Below are positions 40,768-64,000 of a stretch of 64,000 bases of DNA, piece after piece (within the stretch, counting starts at the first letter, position 1; each line of letters begins with the position of its first letter). The stretch is from positions 18,352,001 to 18,416,000 of the forward strand of contig OZ024766.1 in NCBI GenBank assembly GCA_964016885.1, given 5' to 3'. The position numbers were made by a program, and so were the translations under genes. The stretch comes from Eledone cirrhosa. Taxonomy: Eukaryota. The notes beneath the pieces are model-generated. The model saw nothing but the letters and a program-made list of their open reading frames with translations, had not been told where the DNA came from and ran no database searches.

Positions 40768-40771
40768 TGCA

Positions 40772-41150
40772 CATAAAGCAATGCCTGTGCCGTGAAGCTT
40801 TTATAGTGAGCAAAGGCACTGCACAAAGCCAGTCCCACTCTCTTAACCAAGATGATATTTACCAAAAAGAAGAACAAGTCAACATCATTGGATACCATCA
40901 GGGTTGCAGGTGTTATATCAGAGTTTTCCTTCTCCTAGAATTCTGCCTTGACAAAGGCTAAGGGGTCATCTCTCCCGGTGATTTTGGATGGCCATTGACT
41001 CTTAAGAGCTCCTTTGTCCCTTGACAGGTTTTGTTTTTAGTCCTGCAGGATGTCCAAAGTCACCCTCCTCACCAAGAAACCTTGGTGGGGTTGCCAGTTT
41101 AGTCGCCAACGACCCGACCATGAGACAGGTTGTACTGGAATACATGTTAC
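40772..41150 (-). mobile_element. Interspersed non-coding repeat, probably a non-autonomous RTE-derived element (copy 1)
   Basis: Reverse complement of 57063-57437; 'ctaggagaaggaaaactctga' recalls RTE 5' UTRs (class assignment is inference). Confidence 0.6.
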
Positions 41151-41180
41151 CAGTAGCATCAACTGGTGACCTGACATAGA

Positions 41181-41314: not shown

Positions 41315-41979
41315 TCTATACTTATAAAGCTGATGGTCGTATGTATGTATGTAGGGAGAGATGACCCCTTAGGCTTTGTCAAGCAAAGAAAATCCAACTT
41401 TTTTATGGCCTAGGGGCCCGCGTTAGGTAAAAAACTTCATTTTTTTCCAGCTTTTTAGGGCTTTTTTGAGGAGTTACGTCTGGCCGATTTTCCCGAGATT
41501 TCAAGGCATATTATGCACATAAAAAAAATTTATTTTCTTGGCCCCCTAGGGCCCACATTAGGTGAAAACCTGCATTTTTCCTGCTTCATCGAGGAAAATC
41601 TTAAAGATTATCCAGCCATCAGAGTATTCGGTTTATTTTCTTTACATATTGTCCAGGCATGGAGTTCTTCCACGATTAGGTCTGTTGGCGGCCCGCGTTC
41701 CAAAATACCTTATCCCGTGCAACGCCGGGTACCACTGCTAGTAATATATATATATATATATATATATAATAAACATGACAGGCATGTAGTTCTTCCACGA
41801 TTAGGTCTGATGGCGGCCCGCGTTCCAAAATACCTTATCCCGTGCAACGCCGGGTACCACTGCTGGTTATATATATATATAATAAACATGACAGGCATGT
41901 AGTTCTTCCACGATTAGGTCTGATGGCGGCCCGCGTTCCAAAATACCTTATCCCGTGCAACGCCGGGTACCACTGCTAG

Positions 41980-42023
<44 letters not shown>

Positions 42024-42118
42024 AACATGACAGGCATGTAGTTCTTCCACGATGAGGTCTGTTGGCGGCCCGCGTTCCAAAATACCTTATCCTGTGCAAC
42101 GCCGGGTACCACTGCTGG
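41315..42118 (+). mobile_element. Non-autonomous Helitron with four tandem 3' termini
   Basis: a|TCtatacttataaag 5' end; 3' hairpin cccgtgcaacgccggg followed by CTAG|t at 41741; this terminus recurs ending at ~41866, 41979 and 42118 (CTGG/CTAG/CTGG). Confidence 0.8.
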
Positions 42119-42119
42119 T

Positions 42120-42153
<34 letters not shown>

Positions 42154-42184
42154 TAGTGTTAAGTATTTCCGTAGAAATTGTTAT

Positions 42185-50899: not shown

Positions 50900-50996
50900 A
50901 TGTCTCACCTCTGCCCTCGCTGTGATAAAGCTGTTTATTTTGCGGAAGAGGTGCGAGCCCTAGGGAAGAAATGGCACAAGTTGTGTTTAAAGTGTG
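50900..50996 (+). CDS. CSRP: Cysteine/glycine-rich two-LIM protein (CRP/muscle LIM family), coding exon 1 ([32 protein letters not shown])
   Basis: tttcag| acceptor at 50891, ATG at 50900, G|gtaagt donor; LIM CxxC-x17-HxxC pattern. The upstream non-coding exon was not located. Confidence 0.92.
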
Positions 50997-51149
50997 GTAA
51001 GTTGTGAGGTTTATCTTATGGAGTGTGTGGTTGTGTGTGTGTGGGTCTATATATGTGTGTGTGGTTGTGTGTGTGGGTCTATATATGTGTGGGTGTGTGT
51101 GTGGTAAGTTGTGAGGTTTATGTTACGGAGTGTGTGTGTGTGTGTTTGG

Positions 51150-51196
<47 letters not shown>

Positions 51197-51530
51197 GGTC
51201 TGTATGTGTGTGTGTGTGTGTGTGTGTGGGTCTGTATGTGTGTGTGTGTGTGTGTGTGGGTCTGTATGTGTGGTTGTGTGTTTAAAGTGTGGTAAGTTGT
51301 GAGGTTTATGTTACGCAGTGTGTGGTTGTGTGTGTGTATGTTTGGTTGTATATGTGTGTGTGTGGGTCTGTGGTTCTGTGTGTGTGGGTGTTTGGGTCTG
51401 TGTGTGGTTCTGTGTGGGTGTGTGGTTCTGTGTGTGTGTGTGTTTGGGTGTGTGTGTGTTTGGGTGTGTGTGGGTCTATATATGTGTGTGGGTGTTTGGG
51501 TCTGTGTGTGTTTGGGTGTGTGTGTGGGTC

Positions 51531-51733: not shown

Positions 51734-51899
51734 CCAAGTGTAACAACCTGCTAGACAGTACCACATGTACAGACCACAACAACGAGGTTTACTGCCGGGC
51801 CTGTTACGCCAAGAATTTTGGCCCGAAAGGTTATGGGTTTGCTGGAGGTGCCTCAGGCCTTTCTATGGACACGGGCGATCCTGATGAGATCACACGCAA
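51734..51899 (+). CDS. CSRP: CRP/MLP coding exon 2 (AKCNNLLDSTTCTDHNNEVYCRACYAKNFGPKGYGFAGGASGLSMDTGDPDEITR)
   Basis: aacag| acceptor, AA|gtaagt donor; end of LIM1 plus the diagnostic glycine-rich GPKGYG motif. Confidence 0.93.
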
Positions 51900-53475: not shown

Positions 53476-53762
53476 CTGGCCCTAATCTATGGTTTAATGG
53501 TAAGTCCAGCTCTGACTCCACTGAGGGTTTGTGACCCTAATCTTTGGTTTAAAGGTAGGTCCAGTTCTCACTACACTGAGGGTTTGTGGCCCTAATCTTT
53601 GGTTTAAAGGTAAGTCCAGCCCTGACTACACTGAGGGTTTGTGACCCTAATCTTTGGTTTAAAGGTAGGTCCAGCTCTCACTACACTGAGGGTTTGTGAC
53701 CCTAATCTTTGGTTTAAAGGTAGGTCCAGCTCTGACTACAATGAGGGGTTTGTGACCCTAAT
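53476..53762. repeat. 59-bp minisatellite, 5 copies, abutting the LIM exon-3 acceptor
   Basis: Unit ccctaatctttggtttaaaggtaggtccagctctgactacactgagggtttgtga. Confidence 0.85.
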
Positions 53763-53784: not shown

Positions 53785-53938
53785 GAATGTGTCTCAGTTA
53801 GCTGTGGCTCACACTGCTCCAATTCTGGGGACCAATGGAACAGCAACAGCCACAAAACCTCGATGGGGAGGCAGTGACATCTGTCCCCGCTGTCAAAAAC
53901 CTGTGTATATGGCTGAGAAAGTGATGGGAGCTGGAAAG
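53785..53938 (+). CDS. CSRP: CRP/MLP coding exon 3 (KNVSQLAVAHTAPILGTNGTATATKPRWGGSDICPRCQKPVYMAEKVMGAGK)
   Basis: ttttcag| acceptor, AAG|gtgaga donor; GGSDxCPRC..VY.AEKV.GAGK is the CRP LIM2 start. Confidence 0.93.
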
Positions 53939-54712
53939 GTGAGATATGGTCCCTTTTAAACCCTAAACCCCTACTGGAAAGGTGAGATATGACCCCTTTT
54001 AAAATTTAATGGGAGCTGGAGAGGTGAGATATGGCCCCTTTTAAAATTTAATGGGAGCTGGAGAGGTGAGATATGACCCCTTTTAAAATTTAATGGGAGC
54101 TGGAGAGGTGAGATATGGCCCCTTTTAAAATTTAATGGGAGCTGGAAAGGTGAGATATGACCCCTTTTAAAATTTAATGGGAGCTGGAAAGGTGAGATGT
54201 GACCCCTTTTAAAATTTAATGGGAGCTGGAAAGGTGAGATATGACCCCTTTTAAAATTTAATGGGAGCTGGAAAGGTGAGATATGACCCCTTTTAAAATT
54301 TAATGGGAGCTGGAAAGGTGAGATATGACCCCTTTTAAAATTTAATGGGAGCTGGAAAGGTGAGATATGACCCCTTTTAAAATTTAATGGGAGCTGGAAA
54401 GGTGAGATAGGGTCCATTTTAAAATTTAATGGGAGCTGGAGAGGTGAGATATGGCCCCTTTTAAAATTTAATGGGAGCTGGAGAGGTGAGATATGGTCCC
54501 TTTTAAAATTTAATGGGAGCTGGAAAGGTGAGATAGGGTCCCTTTTAAAATTTAATGGGAGCTGGAAAGGTGAGATAGGGTCCCTTTTAAAATTTAATGG
54601 GAGCTGGAAAGGTGAGATATGGTGCCTTTTAAAATTTAAAGGGAGCTGGAAAGGTGAGATATGACCCCTTTTAAACCCTAAATCCCTACTGGAAAGGTGA
54701 GATATGGCCCCT
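53924..54712 (+). repeat. 42-bp minisatellite made of the LIM exon-3 end plus 5' splice site, ~18 copies
   Basis: Unit atgggagctggaaag|gtgagatatgaccccttttaaaattta; its first 15 nt are the last five codons of exon 3. Confidence 0.92.
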
Positions 54713-54715
54713 TTT

Positions 54716-56717
54716 TGTATTTTGGAACACGGGCCACCAACAGACCTAATCGTGGAAGAACTGCATGCCTGGACAATATGTAAAGAAAATAAACTGAATA
54801 CTCTGATGGCTGGATAATCTTTAAGATTTTCCTCGATGAAGCAGGAAAAGTGCAGGTTTTCACCTAATGTGGGCCCTAGGGGATCAAGAAAATGAATTTT
54901 TTTTTATGTGCATAATATGCCTTGAAATCTCGGGGAAAATCGGCTAGACGTAACGCCTCAAAAAAGCCATAAAAAGCTGAAAAGATGAAGTTTTTCACCT
55001 AGTGCGGGCCCTAGGCCATAAAAAAGTTGGATTTTCTTTGCTCACGGTATGAAGAAGAGACTGACTAATACATAGTTACAATTTCAAGGAAATCAGTCTG
55101 ACGTAACGCCTAAAAAAAACCCGTAAAAAGCTGAAAACACGCAGTTTTTCACCCTAATGCGGGGCCCTAGGCCATAAAAAAGTTGGATTTTCTTTGCTCA
55201 CGGTATGAAGAAGAGACTGACTAATACATAGTTACAATTTCAAGGAAATCAGTCTGACGTAACGCCTAAAAAAACCCCGTAAAAAGCTGAAAACACGCAG
55301 TTTTTCACCCTAATGCGGGGCCCTGGGCCATAAAAAAGTTGGATTTTCTTTGCTCACGGTATGAAGAAGAGACTGACTAATACATAGTTACAATTTCAAG
55401 GAAATCAGTCTGACGTAACGCCTAAAAAAACCCCGTAAAAAGCTGAAAACACGCAGTTTTTCACCCTAATGCGGGGCCCTAGGCCATAAAAAAGTTGGAT
55501 TTTCTTTGCTCACGGTATGAAGAAGAGACTGACTAATACATAGTTACAATTTCAAGGAAATCAGTCTGACGTAACGCCTAAAAAAACCCCGTAAAAAGCT
55601 GAAAACATGCAGTTTTTCACCCTAATGCGGGGCCCTAGGCCATAAAAAAGTTGGATTTTCTTTGCTCACGGTATGAAGAAGAGACTGACTAATACATAGT
55701 TACAATTTCAAGGAAATCAGTCTGACGTAACGCCTAAAAAAAACCCCGTAAAAAGCTGAAAACACGCAGTTTTTCACCCTAATGCGGGGCCCTGGGCCAT
55801 AAAAAAGTTGGATTTTCTTTGCTCACGGTATGAAGAAGAGACTGACTAATACATAGTTACAATTTCAAGGAAATCAGTCTGACGTAACGCCTAAAAAAAC
55901 CCCGTAAAAAGCTGAAAACATGCAGTTTTTCACCCTAATGCGGGGCCCTAGGCCATAAAAAAGTTGGATTTTCTTTGCTCACGGTATGAAGAAGAGACTG
56001 ACTAATACATAGTTACAATTTCAAGGAAATCAGTCTGACGTAACGCCTAAAAAAACCCCGTAAAAAGCTGAAAACACGCAGTTTTTCACCCTAATGCGGG
56101 GCCCTGGGCCATAAAAAAGTTGGATTTTCTTTGCTCACGGTATGAAGAAGAGACTGACTAATACATAGTTACAATTTCAAGGAAATCAGTCTGACGTAAC
56201 GCCTAAAAAAAACCCCGTAAAAAGCTGAAAACACGCAGTTTTTCACCCTAATGCGGGGCCCTAGGCCATAAAAAAGTTGGATTTTCTTTGCTCACGGTAT
56301 GAAGAAGAGACTGACTAATACATAGTTACAATTTCAAGGAAATCAGTCTGACGTAACGCCTAAAAAAAACCCCGTAAAAAGCTGAAAACACGCAGTTTTT
56401 CACCCTAATGCGGGGCCCTAGGCCATAAAAAAGTTGGATTTTCTTTGCTCACGGTATGAAGAAGAGACTGACTAATACATAGTTACAATTTCAAGGAAAT
56501 CAGTCTGACGTAACGCCTAAAAAAAAACCCCCTAAAAAGCTGAAAAAATGCAGTTTTTCACCTAATGCGGGTCCTAGGAGATCAAAAAGTTGCATAACAC
56601 TCCATGAAACATAAGTAATACACATGTAAAGTTTGAAAAAAGTTGGTTGGGTTCTTCTCGAGTTTTAGGGATACAAACTCACCCACACACAGACAGACTC
56701 TGTTTTATATATCTAGA
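54716..56717 (-). mobile_element. 3'-truncated Helitron with an internal 156-bp tandem array (~10 copies)
   Basis: 54716-55042 is the reverse complement of 41381-41709; minus-strand 5' end a|TCtagatatataaaac at 56717. Confidence 0.7.
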
Positions 56718-56739
56718 TAATCACCTCTTTTCTCTCCAG

Positions 56740-56833
56740 ACCTACCATAAGGTGTGTTTTCGATGTACCACCTGCAATAAAACATTGGATTCCACAACTT
56801 TGTGTGACAAGGAAAGTCAAATATACTGCAAAG
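56740..56833 (+). CDS. CSRP: CRP/MLP coding exon 4 ([31 protein letters not shown])
   Basis: ttctctccag| acceptor, G|gtaagt donor; LIM2 core. Confidence 0.93.
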
Positions 56834-56845
56834 GTAAGTGTGGGT

Positions 56846-57062
56846 ATCATCATCATCATCATCATCATCATTTTTATGTCCGCTTTTCCCTGCTTGCAAG
56901 GGTGGGATGGGAACTAATTCTGGTTTGATTTCTACAGCTGGATGCCCTTCCTAACACCAACCTCATTTACAGTGAGTGCTGGGTGCTTTTTTGCCGTGGC
57001 ACCTCCACGACCACTTTACAGTGGAATGATAGGGACCTCAGTCCCTATCATTCCACTGCAAA
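56846..57062 (-). mobile_element. 5'-truncated CORE-like SINE ending in a fold-back
   Basis: (CAT)n tail 12 nt after the exon-4 donor; cagtggaatgatagggac-ctca-gtccctatcattccactg. Confidence 0.8.
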
Positions 57063-57644
57063 GCATGTATTCCAGTACAACCTGTCCCATGGTCGGGTCG
57101 TTGGCGACTAAACTGGCAACCCCACCAAGGTTTCTTGGTGAGGAGGGTGACTTTGGACATCCTGCAGGACTAAAAACAAAACCTGTCAAAGGGCAAAGGA
57201 GCTCTTAAGAGTCAATGGCCATCCAAAATCACCGGGAGAGATGACCCCTTAGCCTTTGTCAAGGCAGAATTCTAGGAGAAGGAAAACTCTGATATAACAC
57301 CTGCAACCCTGATGGTATCCAATGATGTTGACTTGTTCTTCTTTTTGGTAAATATCATCTTGGTTAAGAGAGTGGGACTGGCTTTGTGCAGTGCCTTTGC
57401 TCACTATAAAAGCTTCACGGCACAGGCATTGCTTTATATCTGGAGATCTCTCTGCACTTGTCATCACATGGTACCATGGGCCCAGCACTATGCGTCAATA
57501 ATTGTCACAAGTGTAGTGTTTGTACCAGAGTTTTCAAGTCGCTGGCTGGACTAAAAAGTCACACTCGTTCAGCGCATCGGTGGGGGTTCTCCTACATGGA
57601 TATAAAGTAGTGGCCGTACTCGAAAACGAGTTGGCAGCCACCAT
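57063..57644 (+). mobile_element. Interspersed non-coding repeat (copy 2); a diverged relative follows at 57665-57970
   Basis: Near-identical to the reverse complements of 40772-41150 and 58627-59081. Confidence 0.65.
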
Positions 57645-57963
57645 ATATATATATATATATATATAAAACCACTGGGAATGAAGGACCCCTAGCCTTTGTC
57701 AGGGCATTCTTCTAGTAGAAGGCAACTCAGGAAACTGGGATAACTCCGATATAAAACCTGCAGCTCAGTAGTTACAGATGATGTTGATCTTTTCTTCTTT
57801 TCAGGTTATAGCTACTGTCGCTCAGAGAGTGGGATTGGCTCAGTGCACAGTCTTTCCTCACTTTAAAACATATTTTCACACACAGGCATTGCACGATGGA
57901 ATTAATTAATAATTATTAATAATGGTATATCGTGCAATGGCCATACTCGATAACGAGGGGGCA

Positions 57964-58007
<44 letters not shown>

Positions 58008-58277
58008 ATATATATATACACACACATATATACATACATAACCTGTATTTATTCTATACTCGATAACGAGGGGGCAGCCATCATATATATATATATATAT
58101 ATATATGTAGGAGGTGAGTTTTATTGTAGTACAATAAAGCAATGCAGATATCGGATAAGAAGCACTCTACAGTTTGTAGGACTGGAGTATACATAATATA
58201 TAAGAACAAAAGATGGTTAAAAGAGTTACATGGAACTCTTTTAACCATCTTTTGTTCTTATATATATATATATATAT

Positions 58278-58495
58278 ATATATAATAAATAACAAAGAAC
58301 GCTTATAGCATATGCATATCTTTACTTGCTAACATTGTTTCATCCGCACTATAAGTGGGACTCATCAGAGCATAAAGGTTAATTACATACCATTAACCTT
58401 TATGCTCTGATGAGTCCCACTTATAGTGTGGATGAAACAATGTTAGCAAGTAAAGATATGCATATGCTATAAGCGTTCTTTGTTATTTATTATAT
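58278..58495. mobile_element. Near-perfect palindrome (~105-bp arms), Penelope pLTR-like
   Basis: Arms are reverse complements with one visible mismatch and an 8-nt loop; each arm carries a hammerhead-like motif. Confidence 0.6.
58401..58450 (+). ncRNA. Minimal type I hammerhead-ribozyme-like motif (mirror copy on the minus strand at ~58327-58374)
   Basis: tgct-CTGATGA-gtcccac(ttata)gtgtggat-GAAAC-aat-GTT-agca: helix I tgct/agca, helix II, short helix III, GUU site. Confidence 0.6.
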
Positions 58496-58582
58496 TACGG
58501 CTCTGTCCTCAGACATTGAGCTAACCTTATACTGCCTGCTGGATAAGTGGAGTGTTATACACCCCTGATCCTTTCCCTAGTA

Positions 58583-58626
<44 letters not shown>

Positions 58627-58630
<4 letters not shown>

Positions 58631-59081
58631 TGGCTGCCAACTCGTTTTCGAGTACGGCCACTACTTTATATCCATCTAGGAGAACCCCTACCGATGCGCT
58701 GAACGAGTGTGACTTTTTAGTCCAGCCAGCGACTTGAAACCTCTGGTACAAACATTGCACTTGTGACAATTACTGACACATAGTGCTGGGCCCATGGTAC
58801 CATGTGAGGACAAGTGCAGAGAGATCTCCAGATATAAAGCAATGCCTGTGCCGTGAAGCTTTTATAGTGAGCAAAGGCACTGCACAAAGCCAGTCCCACT
58901 CTCTTAACCAAGATGATATTTACCAAAAAGAAGAACAAGTCAACATCATTGGATACCATCAGGGTTGCAGGTGTTATATCAGAGTTTTCCTTCTAGAATT
59001 CTGCCTTGACAAAGGCTAAGGGGTCATCTCTCCCGGTGATTTTGGATGGCCTTTGACTCTTAAGAGCTCCTTTGCCCTTTG
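58627..59081 (-). mobile_element. Interspersed non-coding repeat (copy 3), inverted relative to copy 2
   Basis: Reverse complement of 57187-57644. Confidence 0.65.
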
Positions 59082-59157: not shown

Positions 59158-59225
59158 CTTGCTACAACAAACAATTCGGACCAAAGGGGTTTGGCTATGG
59201 TGCAGCGCTGCAGAGGACGACCTAG
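59158..59225 (+). CDS. CSRP: CRP/MLP last coding exon (ACYNKQFGPKGFGYGAALQRTT*)
   Basis: ttccag| acceptor, phase 1; FGPKGFGYG motif, then TAG. Total CDS 579 nt = 192 aa. Confidence 0.93.
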
Positions 59226-62654: not shown

Positions 62655-64000
62655 CAATGTTATGCGAGATATTATGTGGTAAAGCCTTTACTGTGACAAT
62701 ACAATAGTATATATAGAGTAATGTAAATGTTATGTGAGATATTATGTGAGGTAAAGCCTTTACTGTGACAATACAATAGTATATATAGAGTAATGTAAAT
62801 GTTATGTGAGATATTATGTGAGGTAAAGCCTTTACTGTGACAATACAATAGTATATATAGAGTAATGTAAATGTTATGTGAGATATTATGTGAGGTAAAG
62901 CCTTTACTGTGACAATACAATAGTATATATAGAGTAATGTAAATGTTATGTGAGATATTATGTGAGGTAAAGCCTTTACTGTGACAATACAATAGTATAT
63001 ATAGAGTAATGTAAATGTTATGTGAGATATTATGTAAGGTAAAGCCTTTACTGTGACAATACAATAGTATATATAGAGTAATGTAAATGTTATGTGAGGT
63101 ATTATGTGAGGTAAAGCCTTTACTGTGACAATACAATAGTATATATAGAGTAATGTAAATGTTATGTGAGATATTATGTGAGGTAAAGCCTTTACTGTGA
63201 CAATACAATAGTATATATAGAGTAATGTAAATGTTATGCGAGATATTATGTGAGGTAAAGCCTTTACTGTGACAATACAATAGTATATATAGAGTAATGT
63301 AAATGTTATGTGAGATATTATGTAAGGTAAAGCCTTTACTGTGACAATACAATAGTATATATAGAGTAATGTAAATGTTATGTGAGGTATTATGTGAGGT
63401 AAAGCCTTTACTGTGACAATACAATAGTATATATAGAGTAATGTAAATGTTATGTGAGATATTATGTGAGGTAAAGCCTTTACTGTGACAATACAATAGT
63501 ATATATAGAGTAATGTAAATGTTATGCGAGATATTATGTGAGGTAAAGCCTTTACTGTGACAATACAATAGTATATATAGAGTAATGTAAATGTTATGTG
63601 AGGTAAAGCCTTTACTGTGACAATACAATAGTATATATAGAGTAATGTAAATGTTATGTGAGATATTATGTGAGGTAAAGCCTTTACTGTGACAATACAA
63701 TAGTATATATAGAGTAATGTAAATGTTATGTGAGATATTATGTGAGGTAAAGCCTTTACTGTGACAATACAATAGTATATATAGAGTAATGTAAATGTTA
63801 TGTGAGATATTATGTGAGGTAAAGCCTTTACTGTGACAATACAATAGTATATATAGAGTAATGTAAATGTTATGTGAGATATTATGTGAGGTAAAGCCTT
63901 TACTGTGACAATATAATAGTATATATAGAGTAATGTAAATGTTATGCGAGGTATTATGTGAGGTAAAGCCTTTACTGTGACAATACAATAGTATATATAG
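62655..64000. repeat. 72-bp minisatellite, ~18 copies, running off the right edge
   Basis: Unit aatgttatgtgagatattatgtgaggtaaagcctttactgtgacaatacaatagtatatatagagtaatgta. Confidence 0.92.

What the first reader, a model, noticed from the sequence alone, without database searches (positions are those of the whole stretch)
53924..54712. LIM exon-3 5' splice site amplified ~18 times as a 42-bp array directly behind the true donor
Seen: each unit repeats ATGGGAGCTGGAAAG|GTGAGAT, the last five codons plus the donor. The intron begins GTG AGA TAT GGT CCC TTT TAA, so any distal donor would include an in-frame stop. This mirrors the COPS4 acceptor array in an unrelated gene. Inference: a U1-binding cluster or set of competing donors. 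Intron-proximal donors are often favoured, so correct splicing here needs an explanation.
Basis: partly seen in the sequence, partly recalled or inferred. Interest (0 to 1): 0.7.

Follow-up and report, generated by a model that had tools for sequence, protein, structure and literature searches.

The report
Splice-donor minisatellite in octopod LIM gene
The end of one exon of an octopus-type muscle LIM (CRP) gene, splice signal included, is copied 18 times into the next intron, the one transcript piece seen still uses the first signal, and the repeat is likely a near-neutral by-product of a repeat-prone chromosome, of a kind already known from human, lancelet and chicken genes.

Summary
Real, but of a known kind. 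Exon 3 (53785-53938) of a CRP/muscle-LIM gene is followed by 18 further AG|GTGAGAT donors (to 54696): 16 units of 42 bp with 15 exon bases, and two 43-bp end units with 8. An exact 25-mer from the unit matches only here; read word depth fits the assembled copy number. A spliced contig (depth about 4) joins 53938 to exon 4, so the first donor is used; minor distal use is untested. Every distal donor would include a stop and shift the frame. Human F7, CBS, 6-16, LMNB2 and PDGF repeats, lancelet 'mirages' and chicken 'exon stuttering' share this layout, and F7 minigenes show that the most upstream donor wins. Splice sites are not preferred seeds: 4 of 18 junctions here have local copies, against 45 of 300 control positions (P=0.28). 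No selection on the copied donors and no masking fold were seen. The setting is more interesting: exon flanks on the smallest chromosomes are about 30% tandem repeat, against 8% on large ones. The scan noted such arrays before, in this and other genomes.

The parts
50900..50996 (+). CRP/muscle-LIM gene, first coding exon (ATG at 50900)
   Evidence: tblastn of relative P0001, 85%; GT donor
51099..51320 (+). Two further local copies of the exon-1 donor region (motif starts 51099 and 51287) inside GT/AT-rich repeats
51734..51899 (+). exon 2
   Evidence: tblastn 88%; its 3' end is the loose end joined to 53785 in run X4
53480..53762 (+). Unrelated 55-bp x 5 minisatellite just upstream of the exon-3 acceptor; no match elsewhere in the window or the fetched loci
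53785..53938 (+). exon 3 (154 bp), ends ...MGAGK; authentic donor AAG|GTGAGA at 53938
   Evidence: spliced contig of X4 covers 53791-53938 and continues with exon 4; single match in the genome
53924..54715 (+). Donor-spanning minisatellite: source unit plus 18 donor copies
53939..53981 (+). First unit, 43 bp, type A (8 exon bases, CCCTAA-containing filler); holds the in-frame TAA at 53957-53959
53982..54653 (+). 16 core units, 42 bp, type B (about 15 exon bases, filler AAAATTTA); 15 of them compared: mean pairwise identity 94.7%
54654..54696 (+). Last unit, 43 bp, type A again
54717..56720 (+). Very abundant interspersed element, cut at this end (lacks the roughly 35-base cap seen in 4 of 4 other matches in the window), with an internal 156-bp x 10.6 array at 54947-56592; begins where the 42-bp array ends. 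Right end approximate.
56740..56833 (+). exon 4
   Evidence: tblastn 81%; X4 contigs
59158..59225 (+). exon 5 to the stop codon
   Evidence: tblastn 100% over 22 aa

Best explanation
This is a locus-specific minisatellite whose first unit straddles the exon-3 donor of a CRP/muscle-LIM gene; the transcript piece seen splices at the first donor, and the array is most likely a near-neutral passenger. Shown: 18 extra donor copies, a unit found only here, first-donor splicing in one low-depth contig, and a stop plus frameshift for every distal donor. Inferred origin: a break about 20 bases into the intron, at the cut end of an abundant mobile element, was repaired by short copies of the neighbouring exon tail and donor with filler bases (two events, unit types A and B). 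Unequal exchange or slippage then expanded unit B, and a crossover with a short allele would give the A-B16-A order. Inferred splicing: exon definition or 5'-to-3' selection pairs the acceptor at 53785 with the nearest donor, 154 bases on, as reported for human F7. Rare distal products would likely be removed by nonsense-mediated decay, so selection tolerates the array.
For: Anatomy. Unit confined to this locus. Spliced contig 53938 to exon 4. A relative's protein P0001 reads MGAGK-TYHK with no insertion. The intron is old: a distant animal CRP gene has a phase-0 intron at the same codon and no array (L172). The array ends 1-2 bases before a 5'-cut element. The window is 72% tandem repeat. Locus-specific control positions are locally duplicated as often as splice junctions: 45 of 300 against 4 of 18, P=0.28; three or more copies, 26 of 300 against 2 of 18, P=0.47. 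No excess conservation of the donor core. No unusual fold (z +1.07 and +2.43). Precedents with first-donor use: F7, LMNB2, PDGF, lancelet mirages.
Against: RNA evidence is one run at depth about 4, held as contigs that drop rare variants, and its kind is inferred from spliced joins, not on record. All 18 copies keep AG|GTGAGAT intact, so they are probably usable. In human 6-16 and CBS, two pseudo-sites are used besides the true donor. The exon-3 donor is the weakest of the four donors in this gene by a crude U1 match count (6 of 11, against 7, 9, 9), so helper binding is conceivable. The origin model rests on one haplotype. Control positions overlap each other, and the window was chosen because it holds such arrays.
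Confidence: 0.8

Rival explanations
1. Leaky competing donors: the second or third donor is used at a low rate and gives NMD-bound transcripts, so array length acts as a small dial on CRP mRNA level (as reported for CBS and 6-16).
For: Identical donors 43 and 85 bases downstream would give exons of 197 and 239 bases. CBS and 6-16 use two pseudo-sites. The stop would lie 116 or more bases before the last junction, so the products would likely be degraded and hard to see (computed from exon coordinates).
Against: The only exon-3 3' loose end seen in X4 is the first-donor join. F7 minigenes gave no distal product in 50 extra clones per transfection.
Confidence: 0.12
2. Selected U1-binding cluster that strengthens a weak donor or protects the repeat-filled intron from premature cleavage.
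For: 19 intact sites in 760 bases; the authentic donor matches U1 least well of the gene's four.
Against: No sign of selection on the donor core (P=0.23). The same intron is spliced without an array in a distant homologue. Arrays of the same sort arise from acceptors, a tRNA end and plain intron sequence nearby.
Confidence: 0.04
3. A process that targets splice sites (for example repair or reverse splicing tied to spliceosome assembly) seeds arrays at exon ends in this genome.
For: 4 of 18 junctions in the two genes here carry local copies; two more in a myosin gene 0.3-0.4 Mb away.
Against: Control positions are duplicated as often in the window region, and more often than exon ends in the myosin region (29 of 300 against 2 of 68; Fisher P=0.09 in the direction of fewer at exons; myosin exon ends approximate). 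Among 182 Pfam-matched exons genome-wide none had a well-kept multi-copy array.
Confidence: 0.03
4. Assembly artefact.
For: Repeat-dense region; the DNA runs may be the assembled sample.
Against: Units carry 7 distinct variants in an ordered pattern. Word depth ratios are 7.6, 6.6 and 6.4 against 6.7 expected.
Confidence: 0.01

Closest known systems
Human F7 intron-7 37-bp VNTR, with CBS IVS13, 6-16, LMNB2 and PDGF minisatellites (PMC1557585: abstract, introduction, first results section and discussion read; CBS c.1444_1467+7(16_21) also in PMC2630376, passages)
   Same: First monomer spans the exon-intron boundary; identical donors are repeated in the intron; the most upstream donor is used; copy number (19 sites) is close to CBS (16-21) and PDGF (16-18).
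   Different: Mollusc instead of mammal; two unit types with filler; abuts a cut mobile element. Length polymorphism and minor pseudo-site use were not testable here.
Lancelet 'mirage' minisatellites: Adh3, troponin C, globins BflGb6/BflGb9, PGBD5 (PMC3087553 and PMC3902484, passages only)
   Same: Tandem copies of an exon-intron boundary, at 5' and 3' boundaries alike, without disturbing normal mRNA; the boundary units escape homogenisation.
   Different: Different phylum. Somatic instability was not testable. No sign of intron gain here, since the intron is old.
'Exon stuttering' on chicken dot chromosomes (Hron et al. 2026, PMC12954441: abstract, passages and second part of the discussion read; supplements not seen)
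   Same: Local origin; source at the exon border; introns filled with tandem repeats; lies on the smallest of the chromosome-scale contigs whose lengths I saw (22.4 Mb); repeat cover rises on small chromosomes.
   Different: The exon part here is 15 bases, under their 20-base hit limit. The region is not GC-rich (24-59% in 2-kb bins). Length variation between individuals and gene loss were not tested.
CRP1/CRP2/muscle LIM protein family (host gene)
   Same: Relative P0001 matches CRP1 (PDB 1b8t) at E=4e-54 over residues 4-187; two LIM domains with glycine-rich tails.
   Different: The protein is ordinary; the array is intronic and adds nothing to it.

Membership tests
Donor-spanning minisatellite (F7/CBS type) | First monomer spans an authentic exon-intron boundary | tested here: met
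   Array starts at 53924, 15 bases inside exon 3; donor 53938 confirmed by a spliced contig
Donor-spanning minisatellite (F7/CBS type) | Donor sequence repeated essentially unchanged in the intron | tested here: met
   18 of 18 copies keep AG|GTGAGAT; 13 are identical to the true donor at -3
Donor-spanning minisatellite (F7/CBS type) | Most upstream donor is the main one used | tested here: met
   One contig, depth 3.9, joins 53938 to 56740; shows use, not exclusivity
Donor-spanning minisatellite (F7/CBS type) | Copy number varies between individuals (VNTR) | not testable with these tools
   The three DNA-like holders are one sample
Lancelet-type 'mirage' | Locus-specific tandem repeat of an exon-intron boundary | tested here: met
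   7 of 7 exact 25-mer matches lie in the array; no match in the other fetched loci
Lancelet-type 'mirage' | Inner units homogenised, boundary units excluded | tested here: met
   15 core units are 94.7% alike; units 1 and 18 differ in length and filler
Lancelet-type 'mirage' | Length or somatic instability | not testable with these tools
   No second individual and no raw long reads
Avian exon stuttering | Lateral exon fragment copied in direct tandem into the adjacent intron | tested here: met
   18 hits in a BLAST screen modelled on theirs; the exon part (15 bases) is below their 20-base limit
Avian exon stuttering | Concentrated on the smallest, repeat-dense chromosomes | tested here: inconclusive
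   Repeat cover of exon flanks: median 0.31 (17 genes, C22-C27) against 0.08 (49 genes, C1-C12 and C28), P=5e-6. Junction copies by class were too few: 1 of 35, 2 of 44 and 2 of 97 exons
Avian exon stuttering | GC-rich sequence context | tested here: not met
   GC 0.23-0.59 across the window and 0.40-0.46 around the array
Avian exon stuttering | Large intron length variation within the species | not testable with these tools
   One sample only

The most novel reading that the evidence does not exclude
The smallest octopod chromosomes behave like avian dot chromosomes: they carry a general local 'stuttering' instability that copies any unique sequence, exon ends included, into tandem arrays, independently evolved and without high GC. 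This array, the 38-copy COPS4 acceptor array, the myosin acceptor array and the tRNA-end repeats would be samples of it. Support so far: exon-flank repeat cover is about four times higher on C22-C27; control positions are locally duplicated in 24 of 220 cases on C27 against 2 of 120 on C5 (one region each, P=0.001). No paper joining 'cephalopod' and 'exon stuttering' was found.
Probability: 0.35. Interest if true: 0.55.

Novelty: new member of a known kind. Interest (0 to 1): 0.17.

Why it matters
On its own it matters little: it adds a mollusc example to a known class and agrees with the rule that, of identical tandem donors, the one nearest the upstream exon start is used. It is a usable natural test of that rule outside vertebrates. 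The wider setting could matter more. If small octopod chromosomes stutter like bird dot chromosomes without being GC-rich, the GC/G-quadruplex explanation offered for birds would not be general, and small chromosome size or recombination rate would become the testable cause.

Tried and rejected
Sequencing-run search: no RNA holder listed. Run X4 was taken as RNA only because its contigs are spliced. X4 shows no cover over the first array units; this is not used as evidence. The second laying, at the exon-4 acceptor, was swamped by a very high-copy element; the single X4 contig on exon 4 starts 4 bases inside the exon, so it says nothing on donor choice. X1-X3 show no cover on exon 4 there; the tool warns that such holes prove nothing. 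RNA structure masking the distal donors: rejected, since folding is weaker than shuffles. Selection on the donor core: not detected, low power. Telomere-like CCCTAA filler as a general mark of these arrays: rejected, 3 of 57 units against 2.9 expected. Splice sites as preferred seeds: not supported. Intron gain by tandem duplication: rejected, because the intron position is shared with a distant homologue. Processed pseudogene as the source of the spliced contig: unlikely, exon 3 has one match in the genome. Screen bookkeeping: 184 of the 364 Pfam matches were listed, and 182 had DNA at hand. I added small-chromosome matches on purpose. 9 exons passed the threshold. By eye I kept 5 as junction copies (C22, C18, C19, C3, C5). 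I dropped 4: a mutually exclusive myosin exon, two short exon-internal hits and one marginal 35-base hit; the last three were judged alone. In the C27 myosin gene 6 of 34 exon matches had hits; 2 were kept, and 4 were dropped (two paralogous exons, one microsatellite, one marginal hit). A paper on human VNTRs with repeated splice sites, which I recalled, was not found and is not used. PMC10078293 (passages) gave nothing specific. The Helentron/HINE papers were seen only as a search listing.

Full report
Setting. The window lies at 18.35-18.42 Mb of contig C27 (22.4 Mb) of a 3.0-Gb animal genome. A myosin exon from the same contig is 100% identical over 97% of its 59 residues to an Octopus bimaculoides protein, so the organism is taken as an octopod. 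TRF masks 72% of the window.

The gene. Five coding exons at 50900-50996, 51734-51899, 53785-53938, 56740-56833 and 59158-59225 match the 193-residue relative P0001 exon by exon at 72-100%. P0001 matches CRP1 (PDB 1b8t, E=4e-54). The intron after exon 3 is old: locus L172, a distant animal CRP gene, has a phase-0 intron at the same codon (AEKMNAAGH|AWHK against AEKVMGAGK|TYHK) and no array.

The array. There are 19 AG|GTGAGAT sites from 53938 to 54696. Units 2-17 are 42 bp and carry about 15 exon bases, 19 intron bases and an 8-base filler. Units 1 and 18 are 43 bp, carry 8 exon bases and share a different filler. Fifteen core units are 94.7% alike, with 7 distinct variants, none in positions -2 to +6 (chance 0.23). 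An exact 25-mer occurs 7 times in the genome, all in the array. In three DNA-like runs of one sample, a 300-base contig spans exon 3 and the first two donors unchanged, and repeated words are 7.6, 6.6 and 6.4 times deeper than the flank, against 6.7 copies in the assembly. These runs may be the assembled sample, so this checks the assembly, not other individuals.

Splicing. Run X4 is not on record as RNA, but its contigs are spliced. One ends at 53785 and continues with the end of exon 2; another covers 53791-53938 and continues with the first 23 bases of exon 4. So the first donor is used. Depth is about 4 and contigs drop rare forms, so minor distal use is open. Any distal donor includes TAA at 53957-53959 and also shifts the frame (43+42n bases). 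The protein would stop at residue 145, inside the first zinc finger of LIM2, with the stop at least 116 bases before the last junction. By the usual 50-55-base rule (established in mammals, not tested in molluscs) that predicts decay. The array RNA folds no better than shuffles, so structure does not explain donor choice.

How the first donor wins. Borensztajn et al. (PMC1557585; abstract, introduction, first results section and discussion read) studied this layout in human F7. Only the most upstream donor was used; inactivating it activated the next; moving further away increased exon skipping. They list 6-16 and CBS (two pseudo-sites also used) and LMNB2 and PDGF (first only). Applying this to the octopod gene is inference, consistent.

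Origin (inferred). The array ends 1-2 bases before a very abundant element whose homology starts at 54717. All four other matches in the window carry a further cap of about 35 bases that is missing here, and the element's far end has word depths near 10^5 against about 6 for unique DNA. A break at this point, repaired with short copies of the adjacent exon tail and donor, would explain both the cut end and the two unit types. Later unequal exchange would expand unit B, and a crossover with a short allele would give A-B16-A. The Helitron/HINE label for the element is recalled and was not tested.

Is it special to splice sites? A BLAST screen (exon plus 25 bases against 1.5-kb flanks; threshold 30.1 bits, the maximum of 364 shuffles) finds the array (18 hits) and a copy of the exon-1 donor. 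In the two genes of the window, 4 of 18 junctions have local copies and 2 have three or more. Locus-specific control positions in the same 94 kb give 45 of 300 and 26 of 300; binomial P=0.28 and 0.47. In a C27 myosin gene 2 of 68 exon ends carried copies, against 29 of 300 controls. Among 182 Pfam-matched exons across the genome, 5 had a junction copy and none had a well-kept multi-copy array. The controls overlap, the myosin and Pfam exon ends are approximate, and the window was picked for having arrays. Still, nothing points to splice-site targeting; exon ends are caught by a general local duplication process.

Chromosome size. Tandem-repeat cover of exon flanks has a median of 0.31 on C22-C27 (17 genes), 0.06 on C13-C21 (20 genes) and 0.08 on C1-C12 and C28 (49 genes); small against large P=5e-6. 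Control positions are locally duplicated in 24 of 220 cases in the C27 myosin region and 2 of 120 in a C5 myosin region (P=0.001, one region each). This resembles 'sequence stuttering' on chicken dot chromosomes, where 190 of 5,572 introns hold exon copies (PMC12954441, passages), except that the octopod region is not GC-rich. Two searches found no paper on this in cephalopods. Junction copies per size class (1 of 35, 2 of 44, 2 of 97) are too few to show the same concentration.

Comparison and verdict. It works like, and by the tested features belongs with, donor-spanning minisatellites of the F7/CBS type and lancelet 'mirages' (PMC3087553, PMC3902484, passages). Length polymorphism could not be tested. 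I found the F7 precedent by my own search. The mirage and stuttering papers came as leads from earlier scan notes and were then read. Supplements of these papers were not seen. Verdict: a real feature, a new member of a known kind, most likely neutral; interest 0.17.

Noticed in passing
window 1-2140 (- strand) and L002 7430-10000: COPS4 acceptor array: 38 exon-head copies including the true exon, which starts about 2.5 kb left of the window; about 4.6 kb, units about 110-138 bp; 33 of 38 keep ACAG|G before the exon head.
   Followed up: partly
window 5654-5818 (- strand): Single near-identical copy of the acceptor and most of COPS4 exon 3, about 800 bases upstream of the real exon (4856-5007) and cut before the donor.
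   Followed up: partly
window 50992-51320: The exon-1 donor region of the LIM gene is itself copied twice downstream (motif starts 51099 and 51287).
   Followed up: partly
window 10753-10866 and 11156-12686: Intron-containing tRNA-Leu(CAA) gene followed by 164-bp and 217-bp arrays that repeat a degenerate copy of its 3' arm: the same stuttering at a non-splice element.
   Followed up: no
G000:C27 about 18037000-18037750 (L154): Acceptor-spanning 130-bp array, 5 copies, upstream of a striated-muscle myosin heavy chain exon; a single donor-region copy follows another exon near 18010330.
   Followed up: partly
G000:C27 17978500-17982600 and 17997200-18001500: Three paralogous versions of one myosin head exon and two of another, likely mutually exclusive exons.
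   Followed up: no
window 41315-42155 (- strand) and 54717-56720: Copies of a very high-copy non-coding element; near 41654-42145 its capped end is itself tandemly repeated four times, and the copy in LIM intron 3 holds a 156-bp array.
   Followed up: partly
window 62656-64000, L005, L002 58-919, L003 7297-10000: The same 72-bp minisatellite family lies on both sides of the COPS4-LIM block in opposite orientations; L004 is an unbroken 74-bp satellite over all 10 kb.
   Followed up: no
window 53480-53762: 55-bp array just before the exon-3 acceptor whose units hold donor-like AAAG|GTAGG/GTAAG; not derived from any exon of this gene that I could see.
   Followed up: partly
window 40768-41179, 57050-57600, 58629-59081: Dispersed copies of one unique-looking segment, two of them inverted to each other on either side of 57600-58600 in the last LIM intron (read).
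   Followed up: no
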